From an uncultured Clostridia bacterium (GTDB taxonomy: Bacteria; Bacillota; Clostridia; Christensenellales; Borkfalkiaceae): a stretch of 64,000 nt of DNA. Made by a program: the position numbers and the translations under genes. Positions 1-54,718 of the stretch are shown piece after piece. Position 1 is the first letter of the stretch. Every line of letters begins with the position of its first letter. Location of the stretch: positions 39,457 to 103,456 of the forward strand of contig CANQQD010000002.1 of assembly GCA_947625865.1 (NCBI GenBank), given 5' to 3'. Under the pieces are notes generated by a model, which was not told the DNA's origin, searched no databases, and saw nothing but the letters and a program-made list of their open reading frames with translations.

Positions 1-871
1 CCGCGGAAAGCTCGGCAAGCTTTTGCTCGGCGCGTACGGTGTTGTAGGGATTGTGCCCCTTGCCCTTTGCGAGAAGCTTTTTGATATTATCACCCTCCGC
101 CAGATAGTACACTGCGTTGGGGGGCGGAACTACCTTATCCTCGCTGCCCTGCACCAAAAGTACGGGCGAGGATATGCTCCGCGCGCTGTCCGCTGCGGAA
201 TCGCCGCCGCACGTGAGGACGATATACGGATAGAGCAGCTTTGCCAAAAATTTGGGGAGCCGCTGCGCCGCCGCGCCGTAAATCGCCTTTTCGGGCTTGT
301 CGGGCGCAGAAAGCGCAACCACCTTTTCGGCGCCGACCTTCTCCGCCGCCACAAGCGCGGCATAGCCGCCCCAACTGTGACCCACAAGATAGATTTTGTC
401 GTACCGTGTTAAGTTTTTCCGTGCATAAAGTATTGCTGCGGCAACGGAATCGGCGCCGTTTTTAAAACTTTTTATGCTCTTGCCGTCGGAGAGATTACAG
501 CCGAAATAGTCGGGAGCGAGCACCGTGTAGCCGAGTTTGCAGAAATATGCTATCTCCGTGGTATAGGCTACGTGCCCCGGGCCCATGCCGTGACAAAAAA
601 TTATGAGCGCGTTTTTTTGCCCGATTCCCTCTTTTTTATACAAAACCGCGCGTATATATTGAGTTTTCCGAGGCTCGGCAATATTCAAAACCCTTTCGGA
701 AAGCCCGAAATCCTCTGCGGAAAAATACTTTAAAAGCGGATTTTTATCGCAACGCTTGCCAAACGCCGTCCTTTTTATGAGAAGTGCGAAAACCAACAAT
801 ATTATGTTTATAAAAATTATTGCGCCGAGGACGGCAATCAAAACTATAAGCGCTATCTTAAGAGGCGTCAT
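1..871 (-). CDS. alpha/beta-fold serine hydrolase with N-terminal membrane anchor (gene 3-prime end lies beyond the left window edge)
   Basis: Absent from the ORF track because it is open at the window edge. My translation of the minus strand from ATG at 869-871 gives MTPLKIALIVLIAVLGAIIFINIILLVFALLIKR (hydrophobic anchor), then HGMGPGH and a GHSWGG nucleophile-elbow motif. The frame stays open where I checked it. Confidence 0.7.
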   Translation of the reverse strand, partial: MTPLKIALIVLIAVLGAIIFINIILLVFALLIKRTAFGKRCDKNPLLKYFSAEDFGLSERVLNIAEPRKTQYIRAVLYKKEGIGQKNALIIFCHGMGPGHVAYTTEIAYFCKLGYTVLAPDYFGCNLSDGKSIKSFKNGADSVAAAILYARKNLTRYDKIYLVGHSWGGYAALVAAEKVGAEKVVALSAPDKPEKAIYGAAAQRLPKFLAKLLYPYIVLTCGGDSAADSARSISSPVLLVQGSEDKVVPPPNAVYYLAEGDNIKKLLAKGKGHNPYNTVRAEQKLAELSA

Positions 872-904
872 ATCTTAAAAATTTATACCTGTATGGCGAT
901 TTTG

Positions 905-944
905 TAATTTTAAAAACCGCGGGGCGGCTGTGCTGCCGCCCCGC
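905..944 (-). terminator. intrinsic terminator downstream of pgi
   Basis: GCGGGGCGGC / GCCGCCCCGC stem (919-944), followed on the minus strand by a T-run. Confidence 0.7.
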
Positions 945-959
945 TTTAAACACTTTTTA

Positions 960-2396
960 TCAAACGATGTACTTGTCGTCGAGAGGAGGCGCGGAAGCGA
1001 TTTCGCGCTTCTTGTCCTCGTAGCCCTTCTTGCCGAGGAGCGCAAACGTTGCCTTTTTGCCGTTCTCCACTCCGGGCTGGTTGAAGGTATTGATGTTCAG
1101 CATTGCGCCCGCATATGCCGTTTGCAATTCGAGAAGATACATGAGTTGGCCGAGCGTGAAGGCGTTGACCTCGGGAAGCTCTATCGTGTAGTTCATTCTG
1201 CCGGCGCGCATGAGCGCATATGCCGTTGCCTTGTTCTCTGCCTGAATGAGCTCCTGCATGGTGTGTCCGCCGAGGAAGCCGACGTCGGGAATATCCTCGC
1301 AGCCGTGAGCTATGGGCATTTCGGTTGCATATTTTTTAACCGATATGAACGTTATTACCTTGTCGAAGGGTCCCTCTATGTAGAGCTGAACCTGCGAGTG
1401 CTGGTCGGTCACGCCGAGACTCTTCACGGGGGTCGTGCCTGCGTTTACGGTGTTGCCCGCATAGTCCACAGCCTTGCCGAGCGATTCAGCCCAAAGCTGG
1501 CAGTACCAGTCCGCCATGAGCTTCAGGTTGTCGGAATAAGGCATGAGCACGTGAATGTTCTTGCCCTGATTCATGCAGATATACTGAAGCGCGGCGCAGG
1601 CAAGCGCAGGGTTCTTTGCTATATTGGGCTTGGAGCAGAGACCGTCCATATAAGCCGCGCCGGCAAGCATGCCCTTTATATCTATTCCCAAAACGGCTGC
1701 GGGAAGAAGTCCCACGGGGCAGAGCTCGGAGAATCTGCCGCCCACGCCGTCGGGAAGTACGTACTTTTTGAACTTTCCGCCGAACTTGTCGTCTATCTTG
1801 ATGAGATTTCCGCGGCAGGCGTCGGTGGTGAATATCATATTGTCGGGAAGGTTTACGCCCTTCTTTTGAAGTATGTCGGCAATAATTAAAAATTGCGTCA
1901 TTGTCTCGGAGGTCGCGCCCGACTTGGAAATTACGTTGAAGCAGGTTTTTTCGGGCTCGATAACGTCGAGAAGAGCCTGCATCCTGACGGGGTCGACGTT
2001 GTCCTCAACATAAAATTTGGGACCGCCGCGCTGCTTCTGGGGAAGCTCGTTATAGTGCAGATGCTTTAATGCGTTGAAAGCCATTATGGGACCGAGCGCG
2101 CTGCCGCCAATGCCGAGAACCACGAAATATTTGAACTTTTTCCTTATTTCCTTTGCAGTTGCAAGAATGTCGTTTACGATCGCGTCCTGATTATAGGGGA
2201 GCTCCGTCCAACCCATAAACAGATCGTCCCTGCCGCGGTTAGCCGCAACATAGTCGAAGGCTTCCTGAGCCTTATCCTTTACCGCACGCAACTCAGAGTC
2301 GGTTATTCCCTTGTCGCCGAGGGATTTGGACATCATATAGTTATAATCTACGGTAACGCGCATCGAATTACGCCATTCTTTAGTTTTATAAGCCAT
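960..2396 (-). CDS. pgi: glucose-6-phosphate isomerase
   Basis: Full-length PGI-like protein (GIGGSALGP, SKSGATSET motifs). Internal start MAYKTKEW chosen because GGAGGAAATTTTAATG gives a proper RBS. The track start at 2453 adds 19 aa without an RBS. Confidence 0.93.
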   Translation of the reverse strand: MAYKTKEWRNSMRVTVDYNYMMSKSLGDKGITDSELRAVKDKAQEAFDYVAANRGRDDLFMGWTELPYNQDAIVNDILATAKEIRKKFKYFVVLGIGGSALGPIMAFNALKHLHYNELPQKQRGGPKFYVEDNVDPVRMQALLDVIEPEKTCFNVISKSGATSETMTQFLIIADILQKKGVNLPDNMIFTTDACRGNLIKIDDKFGGKFKKYVLPDGVGGRFSELCPVGLLPAAVLGIDIKGMLAGAAYMDGLCSKPNIAKNPALACAALQYICMNQGKNIHVLMPYSDNLKLMADWYCQLWAESLGKAVDYAGNTVNAGTTPVKSLGVTDQHSQVQLYIEGPFDKVITFISVKKYATEMPIAHGCEDIPDVGFLGGHTMQELIQAENKATAYALMRAGRMNYTIELPEVNAFTLGQLMYLLELQTAYAGAMLNINTFNQPGVENGKKATFALLGKKGYEDKKREIASAPPLDDKYIV

Positions 2397-3843: not shown

Positions 3844-4085
3844 TTAAGTACCACATTATTGCAACTAAATACAAGGCACGCTATTTTTATGCCCTTTTTG
3901 GGGTATAGTTTTTTAATAGTGTTAATAATTTATCAAGCTGAATACGGCATTGTGTATCTCTGCTTGAAATTATTAACAGCATTTTCGTGCTTTTAGTTGC
4001 AATTGGTGTGGTAACCGTAAGAGATACCGTGCGGTGTGCTCTTTCGGGAGCACACCTTATTTTTTTACCGCACAAAGGAGATACT
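3844..4085 (+). promoter_or_regulatory. long structured 5-prime leader with intrinsic terminator (candidate cis-regulatory RNA, class unknown)
   Basis: A 12-bp perfect long-range helix (ATTGCAACTAAA 3858-3869 with TTTAGTTGCAAT 3992-4003) encloses a 16-bp bulged hairpin (3921-3938 / 3962-3977). This is followed by the terminator GGTGTGCTC / GAGCACACC (4033-4056) plus TTATTTTTTT, immediately before the RBS AAAGGAG and ATG 4086. Confidence 0.45.
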
Positions 4086-6686
4086 ATGAAGAAAAAACTG
4101 TTGATTTTGTTTTTGACTGTGGTTGCGGCTTTATGCTGTGCAGCTATGTTTTCTGCCTGCAATGTTGAAAATTCGGGCGGCAACGGCGGCACGACCAACC
4201 AAACACAGCAGGGCGGCGGCAACCAAACTCCCGGTGGAAGTCAAACCGAAACGCCCGACGGCGGTGGTAGCTCCACTACTCCCGGCGAAAACAACCCTAC
4301 TCCCACTCCGCCTGAGCATACCCACGAATTTTCCAATGTATGGAGTTCGGACGATACCACTCATTGGCACGCGGCAACCTGCGGTCATACCGATAAGCAG
4401 GACGAGGCGCCCCATACATATGTAAACGGCGTATGCTCTACCTGCAATCACGCCCATGAAAACCATAATTACGGCAATTACACTGCGGACGACAGCAATC
4501 ATACGCATACTTGCACCGTTTGCAAAAAGTCGGAAAGCGCGCCCCATACATATGTAAACGGCGTATGCTCTACCTGCAATCACGCCCACGAAGACCATAA
4601 TTTTGATAATTGGGTAGACAAAAAACAACCAAATTGCACGGAAGACGGCTATAAAGAACACACCTGTTCCGTTTGCGGCAAAACCGAACAACAGCCGCTT
4701 ACTCATTCGGGACACAACTATCAAAACGGCGTTTGCCAAACATGCGGCGATGTGCAGGGATATATCGCGTTTAAAAATTTACAGTTGAACGACGACACTG
4801 CTTATGGCAAAGTTCCCGCAAACACCGAGTATTTTTCGTTCATTGACGAAATTCTCTATGCGGACGGCGTAACTTACGACGTATATACAAGCCGCGATTG
4901 CAAACCTGAAAGTGAAATCCCCAGCGCAACACCCGAACTTGAATTTGGTGATAACGCCTTTTATATCCTCACCCGCAAGGGGAACGACCGCAAGCTCTAC
5001 ACCGTTACAGTCCGCCGCCGCCCCGTGTATACAGTTAATTTTGTTACGGACGGAAGCGCAGTAGATTCTCAGAGTGTTGAAGAAGACCAAAATATCGTTC
5101 AGCCCGCCGCGACAGAAAAAACGGGCTACACCTTTCAAAATTGGACTTTGAACGGAAACGTTGTAACATTCCCCTATTTGGTAGAAGAAGAAATACCGCA
5201 GACGAGTAATTATACTGTCAATTTAAATGCCGTATTTGCGGCAAACGGTTACACGGTCACGCTAAATGCGGCGGGCGGCGACCTCACTGAAAACGAACAG
5301 CCCGTTACTTTTGACGAAAGCTACAACTTCCCCGTTCCCACGCGCACGGGCTATACTTTCCTCGGCTGGTTTGAGGGTGAAAACCAATTTACCAACGCCG
5401 AGGGTGCAAGTCTTGAAAATTGGACGGGCACGACCGATACTACCTTATACGCAAAGTGGCAGGTAAATCAGTATACGGTAACCTTAAATAAAAATTTAAG
5501 TGCGGGCGGCTCGGTTTCCGGCGGCGGCGACTATGCCTATGACAGCCAAGTAACCATAACGGCAAGTACAAACAACGGATATACCTTTGTAGGTTGGTAT
5601 AAGGAAACAGAACAAGTTTCCACCGAATTATCTTATCAGTTTAAAATGGGCTTAGACGTAACATATACGGCAAAGTGGCAAATGCTTCCGGAAATGGAAA
5701 ACTTTGACTTTACTTCTACAACAACTACTTGCTCGGTTTCGGGAATAAAAGATAAAACTGTTAAAGAGATTATAGTTCCCGATTATGTAACCGAAATTAA
5801 ATCGGGTACATTCAAGGGCTGTTCTAAAGTTGAAAGTATAACTTTGCCGTTTGTAGGTGGAAGTATAAAAACGAAATATTATACCTATCAATATCCGTTC
5901 GGTTATATTTTTGGCACATCAAGTTATGAGAGTGCGTCTGCGGTTAAACAAAATTATTACGGAAACAGTACAAGTTCAACTACCAATTCCACCTATTATA
6001 TCCCCAATTCGTTAAAAACCGTAACTATAACGGGTGGCAATATATTGTACGGTGCGTTCGATAATTGCACAAGTCTTACAAGTATAACAATACCTGAAAA
6101 GGTTACTTCTATCGGCGATAGTGCGTTCTCTGGTTGCAAAAACCTTAAAAGCATAACCATACCGAACAGTGTTAATTCTATCGGCGAGTGGGCGTTCTAT
6201 GGTTGCACAAGCCTTACAAGTATAACGATACCCGACAGCGTGACTTCTATCGGCGGCTGTGCGTTCTATAAATGCACAAGCCTTACAAGTATAACGATAC
6301 CCGACAGCGTGACTTCTATCGGTTGGAAGGCGTTCTATAATTGCACAAGCCTTACAAGTATAACGATACCCGACAGCGTGACTTCTATCGGTCGGCAGGC
6401 GTTCGATGGTTGTACAAGCCTTGAAAGCGTAACCATACCAGACAGCGTTACTTCTATCGGCGATTATGCGTTCGATGGTTGCACAAGCCTTGCTACTGTG
6501 TACTATGGCGGTAACAAAACACAATGGAACCGCATTTCAAATAGCTATTATAACCATGAGTTAGAAAACGCTACGCGCTACTATTTCAGCGAAACTGAGC
6601 CCGATGAGGCAAAGTGGGCAGAAAGTAAAAATTGGTGGCACTATGACCCCGTCACGGACGAAATTGACATTTGGAAAAAGGACTAA
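4086..6686 (+). CDS. cell-surface lipoprotein with Cys/His-rich repeats, Listeria-Bacteroides-type (GYTFxGW) repeats and BspA-like leucine-rich repeats
   Basis: RBS AAAGGAG plus ATG 4086. Lipoprotein signal MKKKLLILFLTVVAALCCAAMFSAC, then a Gly/Thr/Pro linker and repeated HTYVNGVCSTCNH units. GYTFQNW, GYTFLGW and GYTFVGW repeats follow, then a C-terminal array of 23-aa LTSITIPDSVTSIG..AF..C.S repeats. The track start at 3987 lies inside the leader. Confidence 0.85.
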   Translation: MKKKLLILFLTVVAALCCAAMFSACNVENSGGNGGTTNQTQQGGGNQTPGGSQTETPDGGGSSTTPGENNPTPTPPEHTHEFSNVWSSDDTTHWHAATCGHTDKQDEAPHTYVNGVCSTCNHAHENHNYGNYTADDSNHTHTCTVCKKSESAPHTYVNGVCSTCNHAHEDHNFDNWVDKKQPNCTEDGYKEHTCSVCGKTEQQPLTHSGHNYQNGVCQTCGDVQGYIAFKNLQLNDDTAYGKVPANTEYFSFIDEILYADGVTYDVYTSRDCKPESEIPSATPELEFGDNAFYILTRKGNDRKLYTVTVRRRPVYTVNFVTDGSAVDSQSVEEDQNIVQPAATEKTGYTFQNWTLNGNVVTFPYLVEEEIPQTSNYTVNLNAVFAANGYTVTLNAAGGDLTENEQPVTFDESYNFPVPTRTGYTFLGWFEGENQFTNAEGASLENWTGTTDTTLYAKWQVNQYTVTLNKNLSAGGSVSGGGDYAYDSQVTITASTNNGYTFVGWYKETEQVSTELSYQFKMGLDVTYTAKWQMLPEMENFDFTSTTTTCSVSGIKDKTVKEIIVPDYVTEIKSGTFKGCSKVESITLPFVGGSIKTKYYTYQYPFGYIFGTSSYESASAVKQNYYGNSTSSTTNSTYYIPNSLKTVTITGGNILYGAFDNCTSLTSITIPEKVTSIGDSAFSGCKNLKSITIPNSVNSIGEWAFYGCTSLTSITIPDSVTSIGGCAFYKCTSLTSITIPDSVTSIGWKAFYNCTSLTSITIPDSVTSIGRQAFDGCTSLESVTIPDSVTSIGDYAFDGCTSLATVYYGGNKTQWNRISNSYYNHELENATRYYFSETEPDEAKWAESKNWWHYDPVTDEIDIWKKD
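4407..4588 (+). repeat. 132-bp-period duplication inside the lipoprotein gene (50-nt identical core)
   Basis: GCGCCCCATACATATGTAAACGGCGTATGCTCTACCTGCAATCACGCCCA occurs at 4407 and again at 4539. Confidence 0.85.
6205..6411 (+). repeat. three near-identical 69-bp tandem repeats encoding LRR units
   Basis: GCACAAGCCTTACAAGTATAACGATACCCGACAGCGTGACTTCTATCGG starts at 6205, 6274 and 6343. Flanking units are more diverged. Confidence 0.9.
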
Positions 6687-17263: not shown

Positions 17264-17445
17264 AAAGCTCCCGCCAAGCGCGGATATACTTCGCATAGCA
17301 TTGTTGCCTTTGCGTTTTTGCTCAGTCATTTACGTTTAAGTAAACTCCTTTCGCAAAAGCCGCAGGCGTCTCGTTCTGCTCGTATCTGCGCGCTTGCTAA
17401 CTTCGTAAGTTCAGAGGGGTTACTGCTTGCAACATTAATTATTTG
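17264..17445 (-). repeat. mosaic intergenic element, copy A (inverted relative to copy D)
   Basis: Begins at the pgk stop codon. AAGCTCCCGCCAAGCGCGGATATACTTCGCA resembles the proS-proximal end of copy D read on the minus strand. CGCTTGCTAACTTCGTAAGTTCAG (17391-17414) resembles the reverse complement of 52955-52980. Confidence 0.7.
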
Positions 17446-18395: not shown

Positions 18396-18443
18396 TTCTC
18401 ACACGGCGTCAGGAACAACGCCGTATTCGGTCACCGTTCGCGC
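18396..18443 (+). repeat. mosaic element fragment, copy B (module 1)
   Basis: TTCTCACACGGCGTCAGGAACAACGCCGTATTCGGTCACCGTTCGCGC matches 52686-52733 at 43 of 48 positions by my hand alignment. Confidence 0.85.
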
Positions 18444-18466
18444 CTTGCCGACATAATTGTTGTTAT

Positions 18467-18499
18467 GAAAAAATTCACAGAAATTCTGTGAATTTTTTC
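18467..18499. terminator. hairpin at the 3-prime end of the lipoprotein gene
   Basis: GAAAAAATTCACAG / CTGTGAATTTTTTC perfect 14-bp stem. Confidence 0.7.
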
Positions 18500-19437
18500 T
18501 ATAATTTATTGTAATTTATATATTCTTCGTAAGGATGTACCCTATTGACTCTCAGCGGCGCACCAAAAGTGTAACCGTCTCGGTAATCGTGTTTGTAATC
18601 GTTTAAATATTTGCCATATTCGGGATTTTCAACATAATAAACATTATTGTCATAATAACAATCAAAAGCATCAATATCTAACTTGATATCGTTTTTTGCA
18701 ATTATTGTTGTTGCGTACATACTAGCGGACAACCTCCTCCAAATATAAACCAGTTGAGAATTGTCAACAGAAGTGCTTATTATATCTACATCAACACTAT
18801 CATAATTCTTAAAATTGGTTTTATTATCATAATCTATAATATTTTCGTATGCCTTAACAGCAATTTTTTTGTCGCTGACTATGGTCGGGGTGCGGGCGTC
18901 GTCGAGCGCTTGGATAAATAGCAAACCCTCAATGTATTTATTGTCACAAAGATATATGTATTCCTTTCGTTCCTTGTCGCTTACAGAATATTTTAAAATA
19001 TAATTATGATAGTAGTTGCCGTGATAGTCGTTGGAAGGACATTCCGCCTTTACGCTTACATACAGATTGTTCGGCTCGTCCTCATACATAAACGGCGTGG
19101 AAATAATTTTGAGTTCCCCGTTTAAATAGGCGTCGACGTCAAACCCATGCTCGCGCAAAAACCTAAAAGGAATCGGATGCGTTTCGACGGTGCTGTCATA
19201 ATAATTTTCAATAAATTTATCTACTAAAGCTTGATATTTACTGCTTATTAAAAACGTCTTGGTAAATTCACTTAATTGGGTGTTGTCGTTATCATTCGGA
19301 CTGCCTCCATTCCCGCCTGTTTGGGTTTGCCCAAATATGGAGCCGCCGCCTTCAACACGGCAGGCGGTAAATGTAAACGCGGAAAATATAAAAATAAATA
19401 CAAAAATCAAACTTAAAATAATTTTATTTGTTTTCAT
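18499..19437 (-). CDS. hypothetical lipoprotein, visibly AT-rich
   Basis: Signal MKTNKIILSLIFVFIFIFSAFTFTAC with a lipobox Cys, then a Gly/Asn linker and a Tyr/Asn/Asp-rich body. No family recognised. Confidence 0.7.
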   Translation of the reverse strand: MKTNKIILSLIFVFIFIFSAFTFTACRVEGGGSIFGQTQTGGNGGSPNDNDNTQLSEFTKTFLISSKYQALVDKFIENYYDSTVETHPIPFRFLREHGFDVDAYLNGELKIISTPFMYEDEPNNLYVSVKAECPSNDYHGNYYHNYILKYSVSDKERKEYIYLCDNKYIEGLLFIQALDDARTPTIVSDKKIAVKAYENIIDYDNKTNFKNYDSVDVDIISTSVDNSQLVYIWRRLSASMYATTIIAKNDIKLDIDAFDCYYDNNVYYVENPEYGKYLNDYKHDYRDGYTFGAPLRVNRVHPYEEYINYNKL

Positions 19438-19594
19438 ACTATCAAATTCCTTAAAACTTGTATATTTTTAAATTTTACATTATTATAGTTTAGTAATATT
19501 AAATTGTCAAGATAAACTTTATAATAATTTTAAAGATATATTTATTAAGGTTTAAAATTACTATATATTGAACATAAAAATCAAGGTGAAATTT

Positions 19595-19912
19595 ATGTTC
19601 GACGAAAAGGTGATAAGCCAAAATTTAAAAAAGTATCTGAACCGTTCACGGATACAGCAAAAAGAACTTGCGGTAGCCTGCGGAAAAACCGAGGGAACCA
19701 TCTCCCATTGGGTGGAAGGCAGAGTGAGTATCCCCATAAAATATATCCCTTTGATTTGCGAAATGCTTGACATTACCTTATACGAGCTTTTTGGACTGCC
19801 TGACCCGAGTTTGCTTTCGGAAACGGAAAAGAAAGTTTTAAACGCTTATCGCTCTGACCAGGAATTCAAAATGATATCAAACAGAATATTGAATATAAAA
19901 ATAAACGGCTGA
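19595..19912 (+). CDS. XRE-family HTH transcriptional regulator
   Basis: RBS AAGGTGAAATTTATG. QQKELAVACGKTEGTISHWVEG HTH. Divergent from the lipoprotein gene. Confidence 0.8.
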   Translation: MFDEKVISQNLKKYLNRSRIQQKELAVACGKTEGTISHWVEGRVSIPIKYIPLICEMLDITLYELFGLPDPSLLSETEKKVLNAYRSDQEFKMISNRILNIKING

Positions 19913-19940
19913 GGAAAATTCCGCAGCCGTTTATTTTATG
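19903..19940. terminator. bidirectional terminator between the XRE gene and cls
   Basis: AAACGGCTG / CAGCCGTTT stem flanked by A/T runs. Confidence 0.7.
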
Positions 19941-19950
19941 CGTAGTTTTA

Positions 19951-47548: not shown

Positions 47549-47559
47549 ACTTTCAAACC

Positions 47560-47690
47560 TATAAAGAGTGTGCGAGAGAACGGCTCGTCGACCACACAGC
47601 AACCTGCTTTACGCAAGGTGCTAATGCCGTACCGATGGGGATATAAACGTTAATTACTCCCCTGCGGCGGCAGAGGAGTTTTTGATTTAC
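47560..47690 (+). promoter_or_regulatory. S-box (SAM-I-like) riboswitch with terminator
   Basis: AAGAGTGTGCGAGAGAACGGCTCGTCGACCACACAGCAACC...AGGTGCTAATGCC is collinear with the SAM-I core (AAGAG..GAGGGA..GGCCC..CAGCAACC..AGGTGCTAA.TCC). Terminator CTCCCCTGC / GCAGAGGAG plus TTTTT at 47657-47685. GGGGA (47637-47641) can alternatively pair with TCCCC. Confidence 0.6.
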
Positions 47691-47699
47691 GGAGGACTT

Positions 47700-48851
47700 A
47701 TGAAGAAATTTTTTACAAGCGAGAGCGTTACGGAGGGGCATCCCGACAAGCTGTGCGACCAAGTGTCGGACGGGATACTCGACTATATTCTGAGCAAAGA
47801 TCCAAACGCAAGGTGCGCCATAGAGTGCTGCGCGGCGTATGACAGAATGTTAATTATGGGCGAGGTAACCTCTACAGCCAAAATGGGCGAGGACGATTAT
47901 ATAGATATTGCGCGGGGGATAATAGAAAAAATAGGCTACAGACACGGCTCGTTCGCCTTTGACAAGTGCAGGATAGAGGTTGCGGTGCACAGCCAGAGCC
48001 CCGATATCGCCATGGGCGTGGACAGCGCGCAGGACGGCAGGGGCGACACCGGCGCGGGCGACCAGGGTATGATGTTCGGATACGCTTGCAGGGAGACCGA
48101 GGAGCTCATGCCCCTCCCCATCGCGCTTGCGCACAAACTTGCAAAGAGGCTTGCCGAGGTCAGGAAAAACGGAACGCTCGCATATCTTCGACCGGACGGT
48201 AAAACTCAGGTCACCGTGGAATACGACGGCAAAAAGCCCGTGCGCGTTGATACGGTGGTTATCTCCGCACAGCATAATACAAAGGTTACGCAGGAGCAGC
48301 TCAGGGAAGATATTATAAAGAACGTGATTCCCGTTATCCCCGAAGAGTTGCTTGTTGATACAAAATTTTTGATTAACCCGACGGGCAGATTCAACATAGG
48401 AGGTCCCGAGGGAGACAGCGGGCTTACGGGCAGAAAGATAATAGTCGACACCTACGGCGGGAGATGCGCGCACGGGGGCGGCTCTTTTTCGGGCAAGGAC
48501 GCAACCAAAGTGGACCGCTCGGCGGCGTATATGGCGAGATATATCTGCAAAAATTTAGTTGCCGCAGGGCTGTGCGACGAGGTGGAATTACAGGTTGCCT
48601 ACGCGATAGGCGTTGCAAAGCCCGTTTCCGTATTTATAGACACCTTCGGCACGGGGAAGCTCGGCGACGACAGAATTGCGGAGATAGTTAAAAAAGAATT
48701 CGATCTGCGCCCCTCCGCCATTATAAAAACGCTCGGGCTGAGGGAGCCGATATTCTCGCAGACGGCGGCATACGGGCATTTCGGCAAGCCCAACCTGCCT
48801 TGGGAGCGCGTGAACAAAGCCGAGAGTTTAAAAAAATATCTCAACATTTGA
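47700..48851 (+). CDS. metK: S-adenosylmethionine synthetase
   Basis: [49 protein letters not shown] motifs. Confidence 0.96.
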
Positions 48852-48869
48852 ATTTTATAATACACAGTA

Positions 48870-48903
48870 AATCGGCGGGCGACCCACAAACGGGTCGCCC
48901 GCA
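48870..48903 (+). terminator. metK terminator; left copy of a 34-bp direct repeat
   Basis: AATCGGCGGGCGACCCACAAACGGGTCGCCCGCA (stem GGCGGGCGACCC / GGGTCGCCCGC) followed by AAAATTTTTT. Confidence 0.85.
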
Positions 48904-48949
48904 AAATTTTTTATTGTTCAAATTTTCCTTTAATACAATTATAACGCAA

Positions 48950-49037: not shown

Positions 49038-49274
49038 ATGAATCTTGCAGAAGCAGTTGCGGAACGTATAGAGCAGTTGCTGTCGGAGCGCAAAATAACT
49101 CAATACAAGCTGTCCCAACTGAGCGGAGTCCCGCAGGCAACAATCAGCGATTTAAGACTGAAAAAACACGGGTCGGTGAATTTGAGAGTTGTTTATGAAA
49201 TTGCCGACGGGCTGGGGTTGGGACTTGATGAATTTTTTGCAAGTCCGCTGTTTAAAAGAGAAAATATTGAATAG
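49038..49274 (+). CDS. small XRE-family HTH regulator
   Basis: 78 aa; ITQYKLSQLSGVPQATISDL HTH; RBS GACGGAGC is weak to moderate. Confidence 0.78.
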   Translation: MNLAEAVAERIEQLLSERKITQYKLSQLSGVPQATISDLRLKKHGSVNLRVVYEIADGLGLGLDEFFASPLFKRENIE

Positions 49275-49277
49275 CAT

Positions 49278-49311
49278 AATCGGCGGGCGACCCACAAACG
49301 GGTCGCCCGCA
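49278..49311 (+). terminator. right copy of the 34-bp direct repeat (terminator hairpin)
   Basis: Identical 34 nt to 48870-48903, 408 bp downstream, followed by GTTTTGTTTT. Confidence 0.85.
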
Positions 49312-49414
49312 GTTTTGTTTTAATCATTCCAACCGTACATAATCGGTGGTATAGCTGCCTATGCTCGCTATTTTTAAAGTGCCGCATTAAAATGTTGTGG
49401 TGAAATTTATAAGA

Positions 49415-49700
49415 AGCGCCACAGGCACAGATTCTTCGGCTATCGCCTCAGAATGACAGTGTGGGGGAGTTTGCCAGCATGCGCAAAATAGCAGTGTAGC
49501 GTAGGTATTGCAGATACGCGCAGGATGACAAGGAAGGTGGTTGCTCCCACCTGCCCTTTCAGGGCACCCTCCCCCGTTACACGGAAGAGGGCAAGGTTGG
49601 AGGTTGCCGTCTTATCGGACTTCGACCAAGCCACGAGGGAATTATCTCGGGCTCCGCCCTCGAAATGACACGGAGCAAGTTACGTTGCTATTATTAAAAA
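49415..49700 (+). repeat. mosaic intergenic element, copy C
   Basis: Collinear with copy D. CCTCAG..GACAG, CTCCCACC and CACCCTCCCCCGTTACACGGAAGAGGGCAAGGTT (49565-49598; 33 of 34 identical to 52918-52951), followed by GGAGGTTGCCG. Confidence 0.8.
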
Positions 49701-52475: not shown

Positions 52476-52504
52476 ATTATACGATAGATACAGTTGGTTG
52501 TCAA
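52476..52504 (-). promoter_or_regulatory. sigma-A-like promoter of the GntR-ABC operon with embedded inverted repeat
   Basis: Minus strand reads TTGACA, 17-nt spacer, TATAAT. AACTGT ... ACAGTT inverted repeat spans the spacer and -10 region. Confidence 0.65.
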
Positions 52505-52539: not shown

Positions 52540-52575
52540 AATAAATATCCCCGTATACGTACGGGGATATTTATT
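52540..52575. repeat. perfect 16-bp-arm palindrome
   Basis: AATAAATATCCCCGTA-TACG-TACGGGGATATTTATT. Confidence 0.9.
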
Positions 52576-53105
52576 AGCGGCGCGTCGCCGCAACCGGGTT
52601 TCTTAATTGTTTTTGCGCTTAACTTGCTTTAGCACGGGTCCAACGAGAATTGACAATCCCCTCAGTCTCGCTTTGCTCGACAGCGTTCTCACACGGCGTA
52701 AGGAATAGCGCCGTGTTCGGGCACCGTTCGCGCGGGACGTATGCGCTCACTCATCTCGCGCGGCAAAACAGCGCACTGTGCTGTTTTGGGAAATCCGCGC
52801 TCGTCCTACTAAAGGGAGTCAAGGTTGGGGGTGGCGTTGCATTTACGAAGTTATGCGGTGGGTAGAAGCGAGCATCGTCTGCAGGGAATTGGATTACTCC
52901 CACCCGTCACTTCGTGACACCCTCCCCCGTTACACGGAAGAGGGCACGGTTAAGCGTGCAATTACGAAGTCAGCAAGCGGTTAGAAACGAGCAAGACAAG
53001 GAGCGCGCGTAAGCGACGACGGGAGTGTACATAGACGTACACGACCAAGGAGTGCGCAAACGCGACACAGTATTGCGAAGTTTATAATCCGCTTGCCGCG
53101 GTAGC
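52576..53105 (+). repeat. mosaic intergenic element, copy D (longest)
   Basis: About 530 bp without a credible ORF. It contains module 1 (52686-52733), module 2 (52918-52951), an internal imperfect direct repeat around TTACGAAGT (52843-52851, 52962-52970) and several short stem-loops. Its right end abuts the proS stop codon. Confidence 0.8.
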
Positions 53106-54533
53106 TTAATAGGCGCGGGCGAAGATCACCACATGCTCCGCCTTTTTGCCGCACACCGCACATTTTTCGGCAGTCTCGCCCTCGGCGTAGACCCTTGCGG
53201 TGGCGGCGGTTTTTTCCTTTACTTTATCCTCGCATTCGCGGCAGCCGCACCAGCCCGCCTTTACAAAATTGCCGCTCTCGACGCCCTTCAATATTCCGTC
53301 CAGATCTTCGGCGTACACTATCCTGCCGTCGCGGCGAACTCTTGCCGCCTCCAACATATCATTTTGAACGGTCGAAAGAAGCTCCTGCACCGTTTGGGCG
53401 AGGGTCGACAGATCGTAGCTTTCCTTTTGCAATGTATCGCGGCGGAAGATCATCGCCTTGCCGTTCTCTATGTCGCGGGGACCTATCTCTATCCTAAGGG
53501 GCACGCCCTTCATTTCCCACTCGTTGAATTTCCAGCCGGGAGAGGCGTCGGTGTTGTCAAACTCAACACGTATTGACATTTCCTCGAGCTTTTGCTTGAT
53601 TTGTTCGCACATTTCCACTACTCCGCCCTTCTTTGCGGCGATGGGGACTATAACTACCTGAACGGGCGCGACCTTGGGCGGCAGCACAAGCCCGCGGCTG
53701 TCGCCGTGAGCCATTATGAGGGCGCCTATGAGCCTTGTGGATACGCCCCAGCTCGAGGTGTAGGCATATTTCTGCGTGCCGTCCTTGTCGAGATATTTTA
53801 TGTCGAACGCCTTTGCGAAATTCTGACCGAGGTAATGGGATGTGCCGGCTTGCAGGCTCTTGCCGTCCTTCATCATGGCTTCCATGCCGTAGGTGGCAAC
53901 GGCGCCCGCAAACTTTTCCTTTTCGGTTTTTTTGCCGCAGATAACGGGGATCGCAAGCACGTTTTCGGCAAATTCTTTATATACGCCGAGCATCTGCATG
54001 GTTTCCCCGCGCGCCTCCTCCTCGGTGGCGTGGGCGGTGTGACCCTCCTGCCATAAAAATTCGGAGGTGCGCAAGAAAGGTCTTGTGGTCTTTTCCCAGC
54101 GCATGACGTTACACCACTGGTTTATCTTAATGGGCAGATCGCGGTAGGACTGCAGCCATTTTGAATACATGCTGCCGATTATCGTTTCGGAAGTGGGTCT
54201 GATGGCAAGGGGCTCGGCGAGCTCTTCCCCGCCCGCATGGGTGACGACCGCGACCTCGGGCGCAAAGCCCTCCACGTGCTCCGCCTCCTTTGTGAAATAG
54301 CCGATGGGGATAAGCAGGGGGAAATATGCGTTTTTGTGACCCGTCGCCTTAAACCGCGCGTCAAGTTCCGCCTGAATATTTTCCCAGATGGCATAACCGT
54401 ACGGGCGGATGACCATTGTGCCCTTCACGGGTCCGTAGTCCACAAGCTTTGTTTTTAATACTACGTCGGTGTACCACTGCGGGAAGTCCTTTTCTATGTC
54501 GGCTATCTGCTCGACAAAGCTCTCTTTGCCCAT
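53106..54533 (-). CDS. proS: proline--tRNA ligase (archaeal/eukaryotic-like type)
   Basis: Start MGKESFVEQ with RBS AAGAGGAGCATTTATG. FPQWYTDVV and MVIRPYGYAIWE motifs, C-terminal Zn-binding Cys cluster. Confidence 0.95.
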   Translation of the reverse strand: MGKESFVEQIADIEKDFPQWYTDVVLKTKLVDYGPVKGTMVIRPYGYAIWENIQAELDARFKATGHKNAYFPLLIPIGYFTKEAEHVEGFAPEVAVVTHAGGEELAEPLAIRPTSETIIGSMYSKWLQSYRDLPIKINQWCNVMRWEKTTRPFLRTSEFLWQEGHTAHATEEEARGETMQMLGVYKEFAENVLAIPVICGKKTEKEKFAGAVATYGMEAMMKDGKSLQAGTSHYLGQNFAKAFDIKYLDKDGTQKYAYTSSWGVSTRLIGALIMAHGDSRGLVLPPKVAPVQVVIVPIAAKKGGVVEMCEQIKQKLEEMSIRVEFDNTDASPGWKFNEWEMKGVPLRIEIGPRDIENGKAMIFRRDTLQKESYDLSTLAQTVQELLSTVQNDMLEAARVRRDGRIVYAEDLDGILKGVESGNFVKAGWCGCRECEDKVKEKTAATARVYAEGETAEKCAVCGKKAEHVVIFARAY

Positions 54534-54718
54534 AAATGCTCCTCTTTTACCTGAATTTACAGCATTATAACACATATTAACATAAAAATAAAACGTTTTG
54601 GGGCGGTAAACGAAAAATTCGGTCATGCGCCGAGTTGCTGAAAATCACTTTAATAAAAATTTGAGATTTCACTTTTTATTACTTGTAATAAAAAAAACGA
54701 TATAGTATAATAAACACA

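What the first reader, a model, noticed from the sequence alone, without database searches (positions are those of the whole stretch)
52576..53105. About 530 bp of ORF-free, hairpin-dense, internally repetitive sequence downstream of proS (element D)
Between the proS stop (53106) and the palindrome at 52540-52575 there are only 60-71-aa frames without an RBS. The stretch is a chain of short stem-loops: ACGGCG/CGCCGT (52693-52714), GTCAC/GTGAC (52906-52918), CCCTC/GAGGG (52920-52944) and GTGTAC/GTACAC (53025-53042). It also holds an imperfect direct repeat of about 60 nt centred on TTACGAAGT (52843-52851 and 52962-52970). Parts of it recur at three other places in this window (see the separate findings). 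It is therefore a member of a dispersed modular family rather than simple spacer. Candidate explanations are a REP/BIME-like element, a non-autonomous MITE/PATE-like element, or a structured 3-prime UTR or ncRNA. I could not assign it to any RNA or repeat family I know.
Basis: seen in the sequence. Interest (0 to 1): 0.65.

Follow-up and report, generated by a model that had tools for sequence, protein, structure and literature searches.

The report
Mosaic of structured repeats after proS
The 530 bases after the prolyl-tRNA synthetase gene are not spacer but a pile-up of at least four families of short, hairpin-forming repeats that are scattered through the genomes of a small group of uncultured gut Clostridia; one 119-base piece behaves like a tiny mobile element and belongs to no described family.

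Summary
Both strands fold far better than shuffles (z about -6).

About 96% of 52576-53105 consists of modules that recur elsewhere. Read on the minus (proS) strand these are:
- R5a, a 149-nt rod hairpin that starts at the proS stop codon.
- R4, 63 nt.
- The 3' remnant of a second R5, which explains the TTACGAAGT direct repeat.
- An "A-element" whose 5' hairpin is split by a 119-nt three-hairpin core, R2 (52804-52686).
- A terminator palindrome.

The modules occur in other orders and orientations in 13 species-level MAGs (rabbit and mouse gut, uncultured Clostridia/"Christensenella"). In gut metagenomes R2 is about 100 times deeper than its flanks.

R2 and R5 show strong compensatory base changes. 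G-U and tandem G-A pairs favour the proS-sense strand.

Filled/empty comparisons in five backgrounds show R2 is a discrete insertion right after GG, with no terminal inverted repeats or target duplication.

There is no Rfam, phage, plasmid or literature match, and no linked protein.

Best reading: a BIME/BOX-like mosaic of non-autonomous structured repeats, probably co-transcribed as the proS 3' UTR. The mobilising enzyme and any RNA function remain unknown.

The parts
53106..54626 (-). proS (archaeal-type prolyl-tRNA synthetase). Its stop codon abuts the first repeat module.
   Evidence: Pfam tRNA-synt_2b, HGTP_anticodon and ProRS-C_1; ORF list.
52957..53105 (-). R5a: a 149-nt module that folds into one long imperfect (rod-like) hairpin and ends in ACTTCGTAA. 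It begins directly after the proS TAA.
   Evidence: 45 profile hits in loci and window. In the alignment 99.4% of cells are paired and 12 of 20 pairs carry compensatory changes; slid controls reach at most 52%. Fold -52.2 kcal/mol, z = -5.1. Co-oriented with the upstream gene in 32 of 37 copies.
52894..52956 (-). R4: a 63-nt module with two parts. The first is an invariant 12-bp hairpin CCCUCUUCCGU/ACGGGGGAGGG with three G-U pairs. The second is a small hairpin (GUCAC/GUGAC here, GCCCU/AGGGC in other copies), followed by GGGUGGGAG.
   Evidence: 26 profile hits. The second hairpin has 3 pairs with compensatory changes. Fold -29.1 kcal/mol on minus versus -19.1 on plus. In-window copy at 49542-49598.
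52836..52877 (-). 3' remnant of a second R5 copy (subfamily b).
   Evidence: The orthologous spacer in L005 has a full R5b here. The window keeps only its last ~42 nt, at 86% identity.
52805..52835 (-). 5' arm of the 'A-element' host repeat (..CUUGACUCCCUUUAGUAGG), ending in the GG after which R2 is inserted.
   Evidence: Filled/empty pair L019 versus L013. UCCCUUUAGU (52817-52808) pairs with ACUGAGGGGA (52666-52657) with two G-U pairs on the minus strand only.
52686..52804 (-). R2 core: 119 nt, ACGAGC...GAGAA, forming three hairpins. Each hairpin has a foot of the form (C/U)GA-[stem]-GA(G/A). Invariant stretches are CAGCACAGUGCGCUG and GCGAGAUGAGUGAGCGC.
   Evidence: - 73 covariance-model hits.
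- 97.4% of cells paired and 21 of 31 pairs with double changes on the model alignment. On plain MAFFT, 95.0% paired and 11 pairs with double changes.
- G-U 29 versus A-C 10; G-A/A-G 36 versus T-C/C-T 3.
- Discrete insertion after GG in five backgrounds.
- 119 of 119 identical to L005.
- About 100 times the depth of its flanks in metagenomes.
52576..52685 (-). 3' part of the A-element. It comprises a small hairpin, the ACUGAGGGGA strand, the weakly structured 'R1' body, and a terminal hairpin GCGGCGACGCGCCGC (52591-52577).
   Evidence: 38 profile hits, some in tandem arrays of 3-4 units. In most other copies the terminal hairpin is followed by TTTT. Tightly linked to R2 (13-15 nt apart) in 8 loci.
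52540..52575 (.). Perfect 16-17-bp palindrome with A/T-rich flanks. It is the likely (bidirectional) terminator that ends the proS transcript.
   Evidence: Fold -28 kcal/mol, z = -6.6. 97% conserved in L005. The consensus terminator scan did not flag it.
52476..52504 (-). Perfect TTGACA-17-TATAAT promoter of the next gene (GntR-family regulator plus ABC transporter operon). It marks the downstream limit of the non-coding stretch.
   Evidence: Promoter scan 12 of 12; Pfam GntR and ABC_tran.
17265..17410 (+). In-window R5 copy. It begins 5 nt after the pgk stop, in the same orientation relative to its upstream gene as R5a.
   Evidence: blastn; profile E = 1.8e-29; sequence.
18396..18447 (-). In-window remnant (the last 52 nt) of an R2 copy downstream of the tpiA terminator.
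   Evidence: The orthologous spacer in L041 holds the full R2.
49542..49598 (-). In-window R4 copy.

Best explanation
Element D is a mosaic of short, non-coding, hairpin-forming dispersed repeats. They have accumulated between the proS stop codon and its terminator. Read 5' to 3' on the proS strand, the order is:
1. R5a.
2. R4.
3. A truncated R5b.
4. An A-element whose 5' hairpin is interrupted by the 119-nt R2 core.
5. The terminator palindrome.

Each module is a separate multi-copy family confined to a small clade of uncultured gut Clostridia (Christensenellales-like MAGs).

Shown:
- The modules recur independently, in other orders and orientations.
- They sit almost only between genes, mostly in the sense orientation just downstream of a gene.
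- R2, R5 and part of R4 keep their stems through compensatory changes.
- The non-Watson-Crick pairs (G-U, tandem G-A) fit only the proS-sense strand.
- R2 is a discrete unit inserted right after GG, usually in the G-rich arm of a small CCC..GGG hairpin. It has no inverted termini and no target duplication.
- Orthologous spacers differ in module content between sister species.

Inferred:
- No promoter or terminator lies between the proS stop and 52575, so the whole array is probably transcribed as a ~530-nt proS 3' UTR. Its stacked stem-loops would act mainly as barriers to 3'-to-5' exonucleases and as termination or insulation structures, as REP/BIME and BOX elements do.
- The modules spread as non-autonomous elements, mobilised in trans through a single-stranded intermediate. 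R2's form (no TIR, no TSD, hairpins next to both ends, strand specificity) is closest to IS200/IS605-type PATEs or REP/RAYT systems. No enzyme was found.
For: Recurrence and modularity:
- An exact-pattern scan of one genome per species gave 52 loci in 13 MAGs, about 30 of them in one MAG.
- Module maps show solo R2 copies, R2-R1 pairs, R1 tandem arrays and mixed orientations.
- No protein family recurs next to the copies. No transposase appeared among 19 ORFs scanned.

Abundance:
- The R2 core has roughly 100-300 times the depth of the single-copy flanks in six gut metagenomes.

Structure:
- R2: 97.4% paired and 21 of 31 pairs with double changes, against at most 51% paired when partners are slid. 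The result holds on a MAFFT-only alignment.
- R5: 99.4% paired, 12 of 20 pairs with double changes.
- R4: compensatory changes in the second hairpin.

Strand:
- G-U 29 versus A-C 10, and G-A/A-G 36 versus T-C/C-T 3 in R2.
- R4 folds at -29.1 kcal/mol on minus versus -19.1 on plus.
- Orientation relative to the upstream gene, same:opposite, is R5 32:5, R2 37:19, R1 21:7, R3 13:0 and R4 12:4. There is no such bias toward the downstream gene.

Mobility:
- Five filled/empty pairs with sharp ACGAGC...GAGAA boundaries.
- GG precedes 60 of 62 cores, in many unrelated flank contexts.
- R2 is found in a 5' UTR behind a promoter (L057), inside a tRNA fragment (L053) and next to tRNA D-arm sequence in metagenome contigs.

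Turnover:
- The window has R5a plus R4 where L005 has the 5' part of R5b.
- The tpiA-downstream spacer is 1281 nt of repeats in L014 and 355 nt in L041.

Transcription context:
- Only the GntR promoter was found and no internal terminator. The palindrome folds at -28 kcal/mol.
- The modules are present in contigs of two RNA-seq runs.
Against: - No mobilising gene (Y1/HUH transposase, RAYT, serine recombinase, reverse transcriptase) was seen in 448 kb of window plus loci. The mobility mechanism is therefore pure inference.
- The empty sites carry 1-3 nt (GGG, ATT, GCG, T) that are absent from the filled sites. This is not the clean junction expected of IS200/IS605 excision or insertion. The compared copies are paralogues about 13% apart, so the direction of the event (insertion or deletion) is not proven.
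- The R2 core is 119 of 119 identical between two species whose neighbouring non-coding DNA is 73-97% identical. This fits purifying selection on a functional RNA, or gene conversion, better than a neutral selfish relic.
- No stranded RNA data exist. Transcription as a 3' UTR and the RNA (rather than ssDNA) nature of the fold are untested. The RNA runs are unstranded contigs and may contain DNA.
- The loci were chosen because they contain R2, so copy densities and co-occurrence are biased.
- Gene calls for the orientation test were crude (longest-ORF greedy).
Confidence: 0.72

Rival explanations
1. R2, and perhaps R5 and R4, are primarily functional structured RNA domains: a protein-binding platform, a trans-acting regulatory RNA or a ribozyme. 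Their many copies would be maintained by selection, and mobility would be secondary.
For: - The R2 core is 100% conserved between species while its flanks diverge.
- It has invariant unpaired stretches and loops (CAGCACAGUGCGCUG, GCGAGAUGAG) next to freely covarying stems.
- Three hairpins share the same tandem G-A foot, an RNA-type motif, and the mismatches are strand-specific.
- Solo copies occur behind strong promoters (L057, L053).
- The P4 loop is UCCUU/CCCUU-like, that is, anti-Shine-Dalgarno-like.
Against: - Dozens of copies per genome sit in unrelated contexts and in both orientations relative to neighbours.
- No gene class is conserved beside the copies.
- Truncated copies are tolerated (window 18396-18447).
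- There is no general closing helix.
- No expression or processing data exist.
Confidence: 0.25
2. R2 is a PATE: a non-autonomous IS200/IS605-type (or related HUH/RAYT-mobilised) single-strand DNA transposon. It may carry a guide-RNA (omega-RNA-like) scaffold that ends at its 3' boundary, and it would be mobilised by a TnpA, and possibly a TnpB/IscB, encoded elsewhere.
For: - No TIR and no TSD, hairpins 4-5 nt from each end with the same foot sequence, insertion 3' of a short motif, and strand-specific folding.
- PATEs lacking genes and often carrying omega-RNAs are described for IS200/IS605 (PMC10055086).
- The size (119 nt) and the sharp 3' end are compatible with a scaffold followed by flanking guide.
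Against: - No tnpA, tnpB or iscB was seen in any locus.
- Rfam's HEARO, IS605-orfB and RAGATH-18 models do not hit.
- The target is only GG, unlike the usual 4-5-nt T-rich motifs.
- Empty sites differ by 1-3 nt at the junction.
- The left and right hairpins differ from each other and covary between subfamilies within one genome, which is unexpected if a single TnpA reads their sequence.
Confidence: 0.15
3. The modules are classical MITEs: deletion derivatives of DDE-transposase insertion sequences, with terminal inverted repeats and target-site duplications.
For: R5 is a near full-length imperfect palindrome (long inverted arms CGGGUGAUAAAC / GUUUCUGACCCG), as many MITEs are.
Against: - The R2 ends (ACGAGCGCGG... 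/ ...CCGUGUGAGAA) are not inverted repeats, and no direct repeat flanks it in five filled/empty pairs.
- The outermost ~11-15 nt of R5 on each side are not complementary, and no TSD is seen in the copies inspected.
- No IS with matching ends was found.
Confidence: 0.05
4. The stretch is a decayed gene or an assembly chimera.
For: Short ORFs of 60-71 aa exist. MAG assemblies break at these repeats.
Against: - The variation is paired-stem and indel type, not codon type.
- The same spacer architecture from 52877 to the GntR gene is present in an independent MAG.
- The proS-R5a and R4-R5a junctions are found in independent runs with 0-1 differences.
Confidence: 0.02

Closest known systems
REP / BIME mosaics of Enterobacteria (own knowledge)
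   Same: - They are extragenic and mostly downstream of genes within transcripts.
- They are mosaics of several hairpin modules in variable order and orientation.
- They have many copies per genome and no ORF.
- They act as mRNA 3'-end stabilisers.
- They are mobilised in trans, by RAYT, without TIR or TSD.
   Different: - REP units are 20-40-nt single hairpins with a 5' GTAG-type tetranucleotide. Here the modules are 60-150 nt and include a three-hairpin domain and a 120-nt rod.
- There is no sequence similarity.
- No RAYT was found.
- The host is a Clostridia clade.
BOX elements (boxA-boxB-boxC) of Streptococcus pneumoniae; bcr repeats of the Bacillus cereus group (own knowledge)
   Same: - Both are Firmicutes intergenic repeats built from modules.
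- Stable RNA folds are predicted, in some cases with compensatory changes.
- They are transcribed with neighbouring genes.
- The mobilising machinery is unknown or only inferred.
   Different: - BOX has a fixed A-Bn-C order, and bcr1 makes a TTTAT duplication.
- The present modules combine freely and nest within each other.
- There is no sequence similarity.
PATEs, non-autonomous IS200/IS605 elements (PMC10055086)
   Same: - No TIR or TSD.
- Subterminal hairpins and strand specificity.
- Insertion 3' of a short motif.
- No coding capacity.
- Can consist largely of a structured RNA scaffold.
   Different: - No partner transposase or nuclease was found.
- The target is only GG.
- The junctions are not perfectly clean.
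- The two end hairpins are dissimilar.
MITEs such as Correia/NEMIS (PMC10969869, PMC3184786)
   Same: They are small, non-coding, multi-copy elements. They fold into long hairpins when transcribed (as R5 does) and lie in intergenic regions.
   Different: The defining TIRs and TSDs are absent for R2 and were not seen for R5.

Membership tests
Any Rfam 15 RNA family | Covariance-model score at or above the gathering threshold | tested here: not met
   Whole window: only a SAM riboswitch elsewhere. Region at E up to 10: only weak chance hits on the palindrome. 18 repeat-rich loci: only two tRNAs.
MITE (DDE-type) | Terminal inverted repeats | tested here: not met
   The R2 termini ACGAGCGCGG / CCGTGTGAGAA are not inverted copies. 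R5 has long internal inverted arms, but its outermost 11-15 nt are not complementary.
MITE (DDE-type) | Target-site duplication flanking each copy | tested here: not met
   Five R2 filled/empty pairs show no duplication. None was seen at the R5 copies inspected. One R2 copy (L017) has a 15-17-nt flanking direct repeat, which is not general.
REP / BIME (RAYT-mobilised) | 20-40-nt GC-rich hairpin units with a conserved 5' tetranucleotide, clustered in mosaics | tested here: inconclusive
   The mosaic clustering and a shared hairpin foot (CGA-stem-GAG) are present. However, the units are larger and more complex, and the GTAG-type motif is absent.
REP / BIME (RAYT-mobilised) | A RAYT (TnpA-REP) gene in the genome, typically flanked by REPs | not testable with these tools
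   Only 448 kb of window plus loci was available. No recurring ORF family lies near the copies, and no transposase domain appeared in 19 ORFs scanned. Whole MAGs could not be scanned.
IS200/IS605 PATE | No TIR and no TSD, with subterminal hairpins at both ends on one strand | tested here: met
   The hairpins start 4 nt from the 5' end and end 5 nt from the 3' end. G-U and G-A pairs occur on one strand only.
IS200/IS605 PATE | Insertion 3' of a specific 4-5-nt motif, with precise junctions (empty site equals the flanks joined) | tested here: inconclusive
   The 5' flank ends in GG in 60 of 62 copies. The motif is only 2-3 nt, and the empty paralogues carry 1-3 extra nt at the junction.
IS200/IS605 PATE | An autonomous relative with the same ends encoding TnpA (Y1) | not testable with these tools
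   None was found in the loci.
IS607-type (serine recombinase) element | A GG crossover dinucleotide at both junctions | tested here: not met
   GG is present at the 5' junction only. The 3' junction is GAGAA followed by A, C, G or T.
Integron attC site | A single imperfect palindrome bounded by RYYYAAC...GTTRRRY, following a cassette ORF | tested here: not met
   No such boundary motifs are present. The modules cluster without ORFs.
Self-cleaving ribozymes (hammerhead, twister, pistol, hatchet, twister-sister, HDV-like) | A match to the family's conserved core and structure | tested here: not met
   No Rfam hits. R2's UGA-[stem]-GAA resembles only the stem-II foot of a hammerhead; the CUGANGA core is absent (by inspection).

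The most novel reading that the evidence does not exclude
R2 would be a previously undescribed class of mobile structured RNA element. It is a 119-nt three-hairpin domain with tandem G-A feet and invariant loops. It is kept identical across species and copies itself to sites just after GG in small C/G hairpins, including tRNA genes and UTRs. Under this reading the fold is the substrate of an unknown RNA- or ssDNA-based mobility machine, or it is itself a guide-RNA scaffold or ribozyme that makes the insertions harmless or self-propagating.
Probability: 0.15. Interest if true: 0.8.

Novelty: new member of a known kind. Interest (0 to 1): 0.45.

Why it matters
Dispersed structured repeats such as REP/BIME, BOX and PATEs shape mRNA stability, termination, genome rearrangement and assembly quality. 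They have repeatedly led to new enzymology, including RAYTs and TnpB/IscB guide RNAs.

This clade of uncultured gut Clostridia carries a rich, nested set of such elements that no database describes. They fragment its MAG assemblies, since many contigs end in R2.

One of the elements, R2, combines very strong covariation, absolute cross-species conservation and clean insertion boundaries. That makes it a tractable entry point for two searches: for its mobilising enzyme, and for a new structured-RNA function.

For the proS locus itself, the practical consequence is a ~530-nt highly structured 3' UTR that starts at the stop codon. This could affect proS mRNA decay and translation termination.

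Tried and rejected
- Rfam at gathering and at E up to 10 on the region, and at gathering on 18 loci: nothing relevant.
- Viral contigs with two module patterns: 4 chance matches and 0 matches.
- Phage and plasmid collections, blastn 'distant': no match.
- JGI metagenome contigs with a subfamily-tolerant R2 pattern: a single contig, L057. The family is rare outside the rabbit and mouse MAG sets.
- Literature searches by taxon, by repeat terms and by exact sequence strings: nothing specific.
- Exact look-up of the ProRS protein: not on record.
- Search for a protein family recurring beside the copies: only orthologous synteny blocks and a P-type ATPase paralogue.
- A general closing helix (P0) around R2: rejected. 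Own-flank duplex energy is no better than mismatched flanks. P0 exists only in the A-element background.
- A pseudoknot between the 5' GGGACG and the P3 loop CGUCCC: possible in the main subfamily, but absent in the AUAGUGCAAG-loop subfamily, and the GGG is target DNA. Not adopted.
- Hammerhead-like reading of GAUGAGUGA[stem]GAAC: the core is not met.
- Filled/empty pairs for R4, R5 and R1: none found in this sample.
- Polymorphic empty site for the window's own R2 in four more metagenomes: no joint skipping about 119 nt.
- Strand of transcription: only unstranded contig-type RNA runs are available.
Full report
**Setting**

The finding lies between proS and the next gene.
- proS is on the minus strand at 53106-54626, with Pfam tRNA-synt_2b, HGTP_anticodon and ProRS-C_1.
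- The next minus-strand gene is a GntR-family regulator heading an ABC-transporter operon. It has a perfect TTGACA-17-TATAAT promoter at 52504-52476.
- Between them lie the 36-nt palindrome (52540-52575; -28 kcal/mol, z = -6.6) and the 530-nt stretch in question.
- No other promoter-like or terminator-like site was found inside.

**Observation check**

Only 43-71-aa ORFs occur. The stretch folds far better than dinucleotide shuffles on either strand: z = -6.7 and -6.1.

The three in-window recurrences are real:
- 18396-18447, a remnant of module R2.
- 49542-49598, module R4.
- 17265-17410, module R5. It is reverse-complemented, so like the proS copy it starts right after the stop codon of its upstream gene, pgk.

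**Not a known RNA family**

Rfam 15 gives nothing in three searches: at gathering thresholds on the window, at E up to 10 on the region, and at gathering on 18 related loci. Phage and plasmid collections, viral contigs and literature searches (including exact sequence strings) were also negative.

**A dispersed family**

Laying contigs of rabbit-gut and other gut metagenomes on the region shows single-copy flanks at depth 3-70. The R2 part reaches about 100-300 times that depth, and R4 and R5 are also in excess.

An exact-pattern scan of one genome per prokaryotic species (185,579 species) returned 52 loci in only 13 MAGs.
- Eight are rabbit ('Lapin') MAGs labelled uncultured Clostridia.
- Three are 'uncultured Christensenella sp.' MAGs, two of them carrying MGBC-series isolate names.
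- Two are other Clostridia MAGs.
- About 30 of the loci come from one MAG.

A subfamily-tolerant pattern found a single contig in the JGI metagenome set. The family is therefore abundant where it occurs but phylogenetically narrow.

**Anatomy**

Comparison with these loci resolves element D on the minus strand as follows.
- R5a (53105-52957).
- R4 (52956-52894).
- A 16-nt linker.
- The last ~42 nt of a second R5 (52877-52836).
- An 'A-element' (52835-52576) whose 5' hairpin is split by the R2 core (52804-52686).
- The palindrome.

About 96% of the 530 nt belongs to recurring modules.

Elsewhere the same modules occur in several arrangements:
- alone (many solo R2 copies);
- as R2-R1 pairs;
- as R1 tandem arrays;
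- in either relative orientation.

They are therefore independent families that accumulate in the same spacers.

**Structure**

*R2.* The raw alignment of about 60 R2 copies already shows invariant single-stranded stretches separated by stems that change on both sides. Examples are GCGCGG/CCGCGC versus GCAAUG/CAUUGC versus GCAACGC/GCGUUGC, and ACACGGCG/CGCCGUGU versus GCCAACGG/CCGUUGGC versus GGCGGUUG/CAACCGCC. Different subfamilies coexist in one genome.

A covariance model finds 73 copies.
- On its alignment, 97.4% of 2034 cells are standard pairs and 21 of 31 pairs show double changes. With partners slid by 1-3 columns, at most 51% pair.
- On the plain MAFFT alignment the values are 95.0% paired and 11 pairs with double changes.

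All three hairpins share the foot (C/U)GA-[stem]-GA(G/A), that is, tandem G-A/A-G pairs closed by a Watson-Crick pair. One subfamily has a further tandem G-A inside P1.

*R5.* It is a ~120-nt rod-like hairpin with 99.4% pairing and 12 of 20 pairs compensated.

*R4.* It has an invariant 12-bp hairpin with three G-U pairs and a second hairpin with compensatory changes.

*R1.* It is weakly structured except for a terminal hairpin, which in most copies is followed by TTTT.

**Strand**

In R2, G-U cells outnumber A-C cells 29 to 10. G-A/A-G cells number 36 against 3 T-C/C-T. R4 folds at -29.1 kcal/mol on the minus strand and -19.1 on the plus strand. The A-element closing stem UCCCUUUAGU/ACUGAGGGGA needs two G-U pairs on the minus strand. 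The selected fold is therefore that of the proS-sense strand, as RNA or as single-stranded DNA.

Across loci the modules are co-oriented with the gene on their 5' side. The same:opposite counts are R5 32:5, R2 37:19, R1 21:7, R3 13:0 and R4 12:4. There is no such bias toward the gene on their 3' side. This argues for a link to the upstream transcript or terminator rather than to replication direction (crude gene calls).

**Mobility and turnover**

Joining the flanks of R2 copies and searching for them uninterrupted gave five filled/empty pairs in five different host repeats.
- In each pair the inserted block is ACGAGC...GAGAA (117-121 nt).
- It follows GG, and the empty copy carries 1-3 other nucleotides (GGG, ATT, GCG, T) at the junction.
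- There are no inverted termini and no target duplication.
- GG precedes 60 of 62 cores, in many unrelated contexts. It is usually the G-rich arm of a small CCC..GGG hairpin.

R2 also occurs in other settings:
- about 28 nt downstream of a TTGAAA-17-TATAAT promoter in a 5' UTR (L057);
- inside a duplicated tRNA-Arg fragment behind a perfect promoter (L053);
- abutting tRNA D-arm sequence in metagenome contigs.

Orthologous spacers differ between sister species.
- L005 is the proS-gntR spacer of Lapin-021__bin90. It matches the window from 52877 to gntR, but has a full R5b where the window has R5a plus R4 plus a truncated R5b.
- The tpiA-downstream spacer is 1281 nt of repeats in one species and 355 nt in another. 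In the window it retains only a 52-nt R2 stump.

Some R2 and R5 copies contain a 22-23-nt hairpin mini-insert in opposite orientations, which shows nesting at a smaller scale.

**Constraint**

Between the window and L005 the R2 core is 119 of 119 identical. The proS 3' end is 86% identical, R1 79%, and the A-element arms 73-97%. Either the core is under strong purifying selection or it is homogenised among copies.

**What could not be found**

- No protein family recurs next to the copies.
- None of 19 ORFs scanned has a transposase, recombinase or reverse-transcriptase domain.
- Only unstranded, contig-type RNA runs hold the sequence. They do contain R2 and R5, but this proves neither transcription nor its strand.

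**Interpretation**

The best-supported reading is a BIME/BOX-like mosaic of non-autonomous structured repeats sitting in, and probably transcribed as, the proS 3' UTR.

The steps that are shown:
- the modules are repeated;
- they behave independently;
- they lie between genes in the sense orientation;
- their stems covary;
- the strand asymmetry is as described;
- R2 has discrete insertion boundaries;
- module content turns over between species.

The steps that are inferred:
- co-transcription with proS;
- an exonuclease-barrier or termination role;
- the mobilisation route.

In form, R2 is closest to IS200/IS605-type PATEs (PMC10055086) or to REP/RAYT systems. However, the partner enzyme is missing, the target is only GG and the junctions are not perfectly clean. 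Membership is therefore not claimed.

The classical MITE definition (TIR plus TSD) is not met. So are IS607-type, attC and known-ribozyme definitions.

The perfect conservation and RNA-type motifs of R2 keep open a more interesting possibility: that it is a functional or self-propagating structured RNA of a new kind. I give that reading about 15%.

**Verdict**

It is a new, undescribed set of families of a known kind of genomic element. The R2 module is the part most worth experimental follow-up.

Noticed in passing
L026 4616-4635, L047 4993-5012, L036 5345-5364 and 6339-6358, L015 2517-2536 and 3634-3653, L010 1935-1954: A 22-23-nt mini-element (TCGTACCG-AAGGC-NNNN-GCCTT) is inserted inside some R2 copies. 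It also occurs reverse-complemented inside some R5 copies. This looks like REP-sized nested insertion. It is absent from the window.
   Followed up: partly
window 49622-49672 (+): CCAAGCCACGAGGG-AATTAT-CTCGGGCTCCGCCCTCGAAATGACACGG looks like an empty (R2-free) copy of one of the host repeats. In other loci that host repeat carries R2 between ..CCACGGGGGG and CTCTCGGGCTCCGCCCTCGAAATGACAC. The 49300-49700 spacer is another repeat pile-up.
   Followed up: partly
window about 18448-19950: A low-GC segment (0.35-0.41) holds a 312-aa ORF (18499-19437, minus) without any Pfam hit and a small HTH_3 protein (19568-19912). It sits where sister genomes have the rest of an R2 copy. It looks like a window-specific insertion that truncated R2.
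   Followed up: partly
L053 about 800-1200 (minus strand): The order is a perfect TTGACA-17-TATAAT promoter, the first 27 nt of a tRNA-Arg(ACG), an R2 core, the tRNA anticodon-arm fragment, a hairpin, and then the intact tRNA. Metagenome contigs also join the R2 5' end to tRNA D-arm sequence (GGTAGAGCG|ACGAGC).
   Followed up: partly
L017 about 780-960: An R2 copy plus about 19 nt is flanked by a 15-17-nt direct repeat, CATGAAAACTGA(A)GG. It is the only copy seen with something like a long target duplication.
   Followed up: no
window 5983-6534: Six tandem 69-nt repeats lie inside an 899-aa ORF (3987-6686). The ORF carries BspA-type leucine-rich repeats and Listeria-Bacteroides repeat domains, so it is a repetitive surface protein.
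   Followed up: partly
window 48870-48912 and 49278-49320: Two 91%-identical copies of a GC-rich terminator hairpin (CGGCGGGCGACCCACAAACGGGTCGCCCGC) bracket a small ORF region starting near 49039. This is possibly a small inserted cassette downstream of metK.
   Followed up: no
window 47556-47641 (+): A SAM-I riboswitch (54.4 bits) lies upstream of the S-adenosylmethionine synthetase gene (47682-48851).
   Followed up: yes
L010 638-858; L044 269-569: The R1 module forms tandem arrays of 3-4 units of about 70-85 nt in some loci, so part of the A-element can behave as a minisatellite.
   Followed up: no
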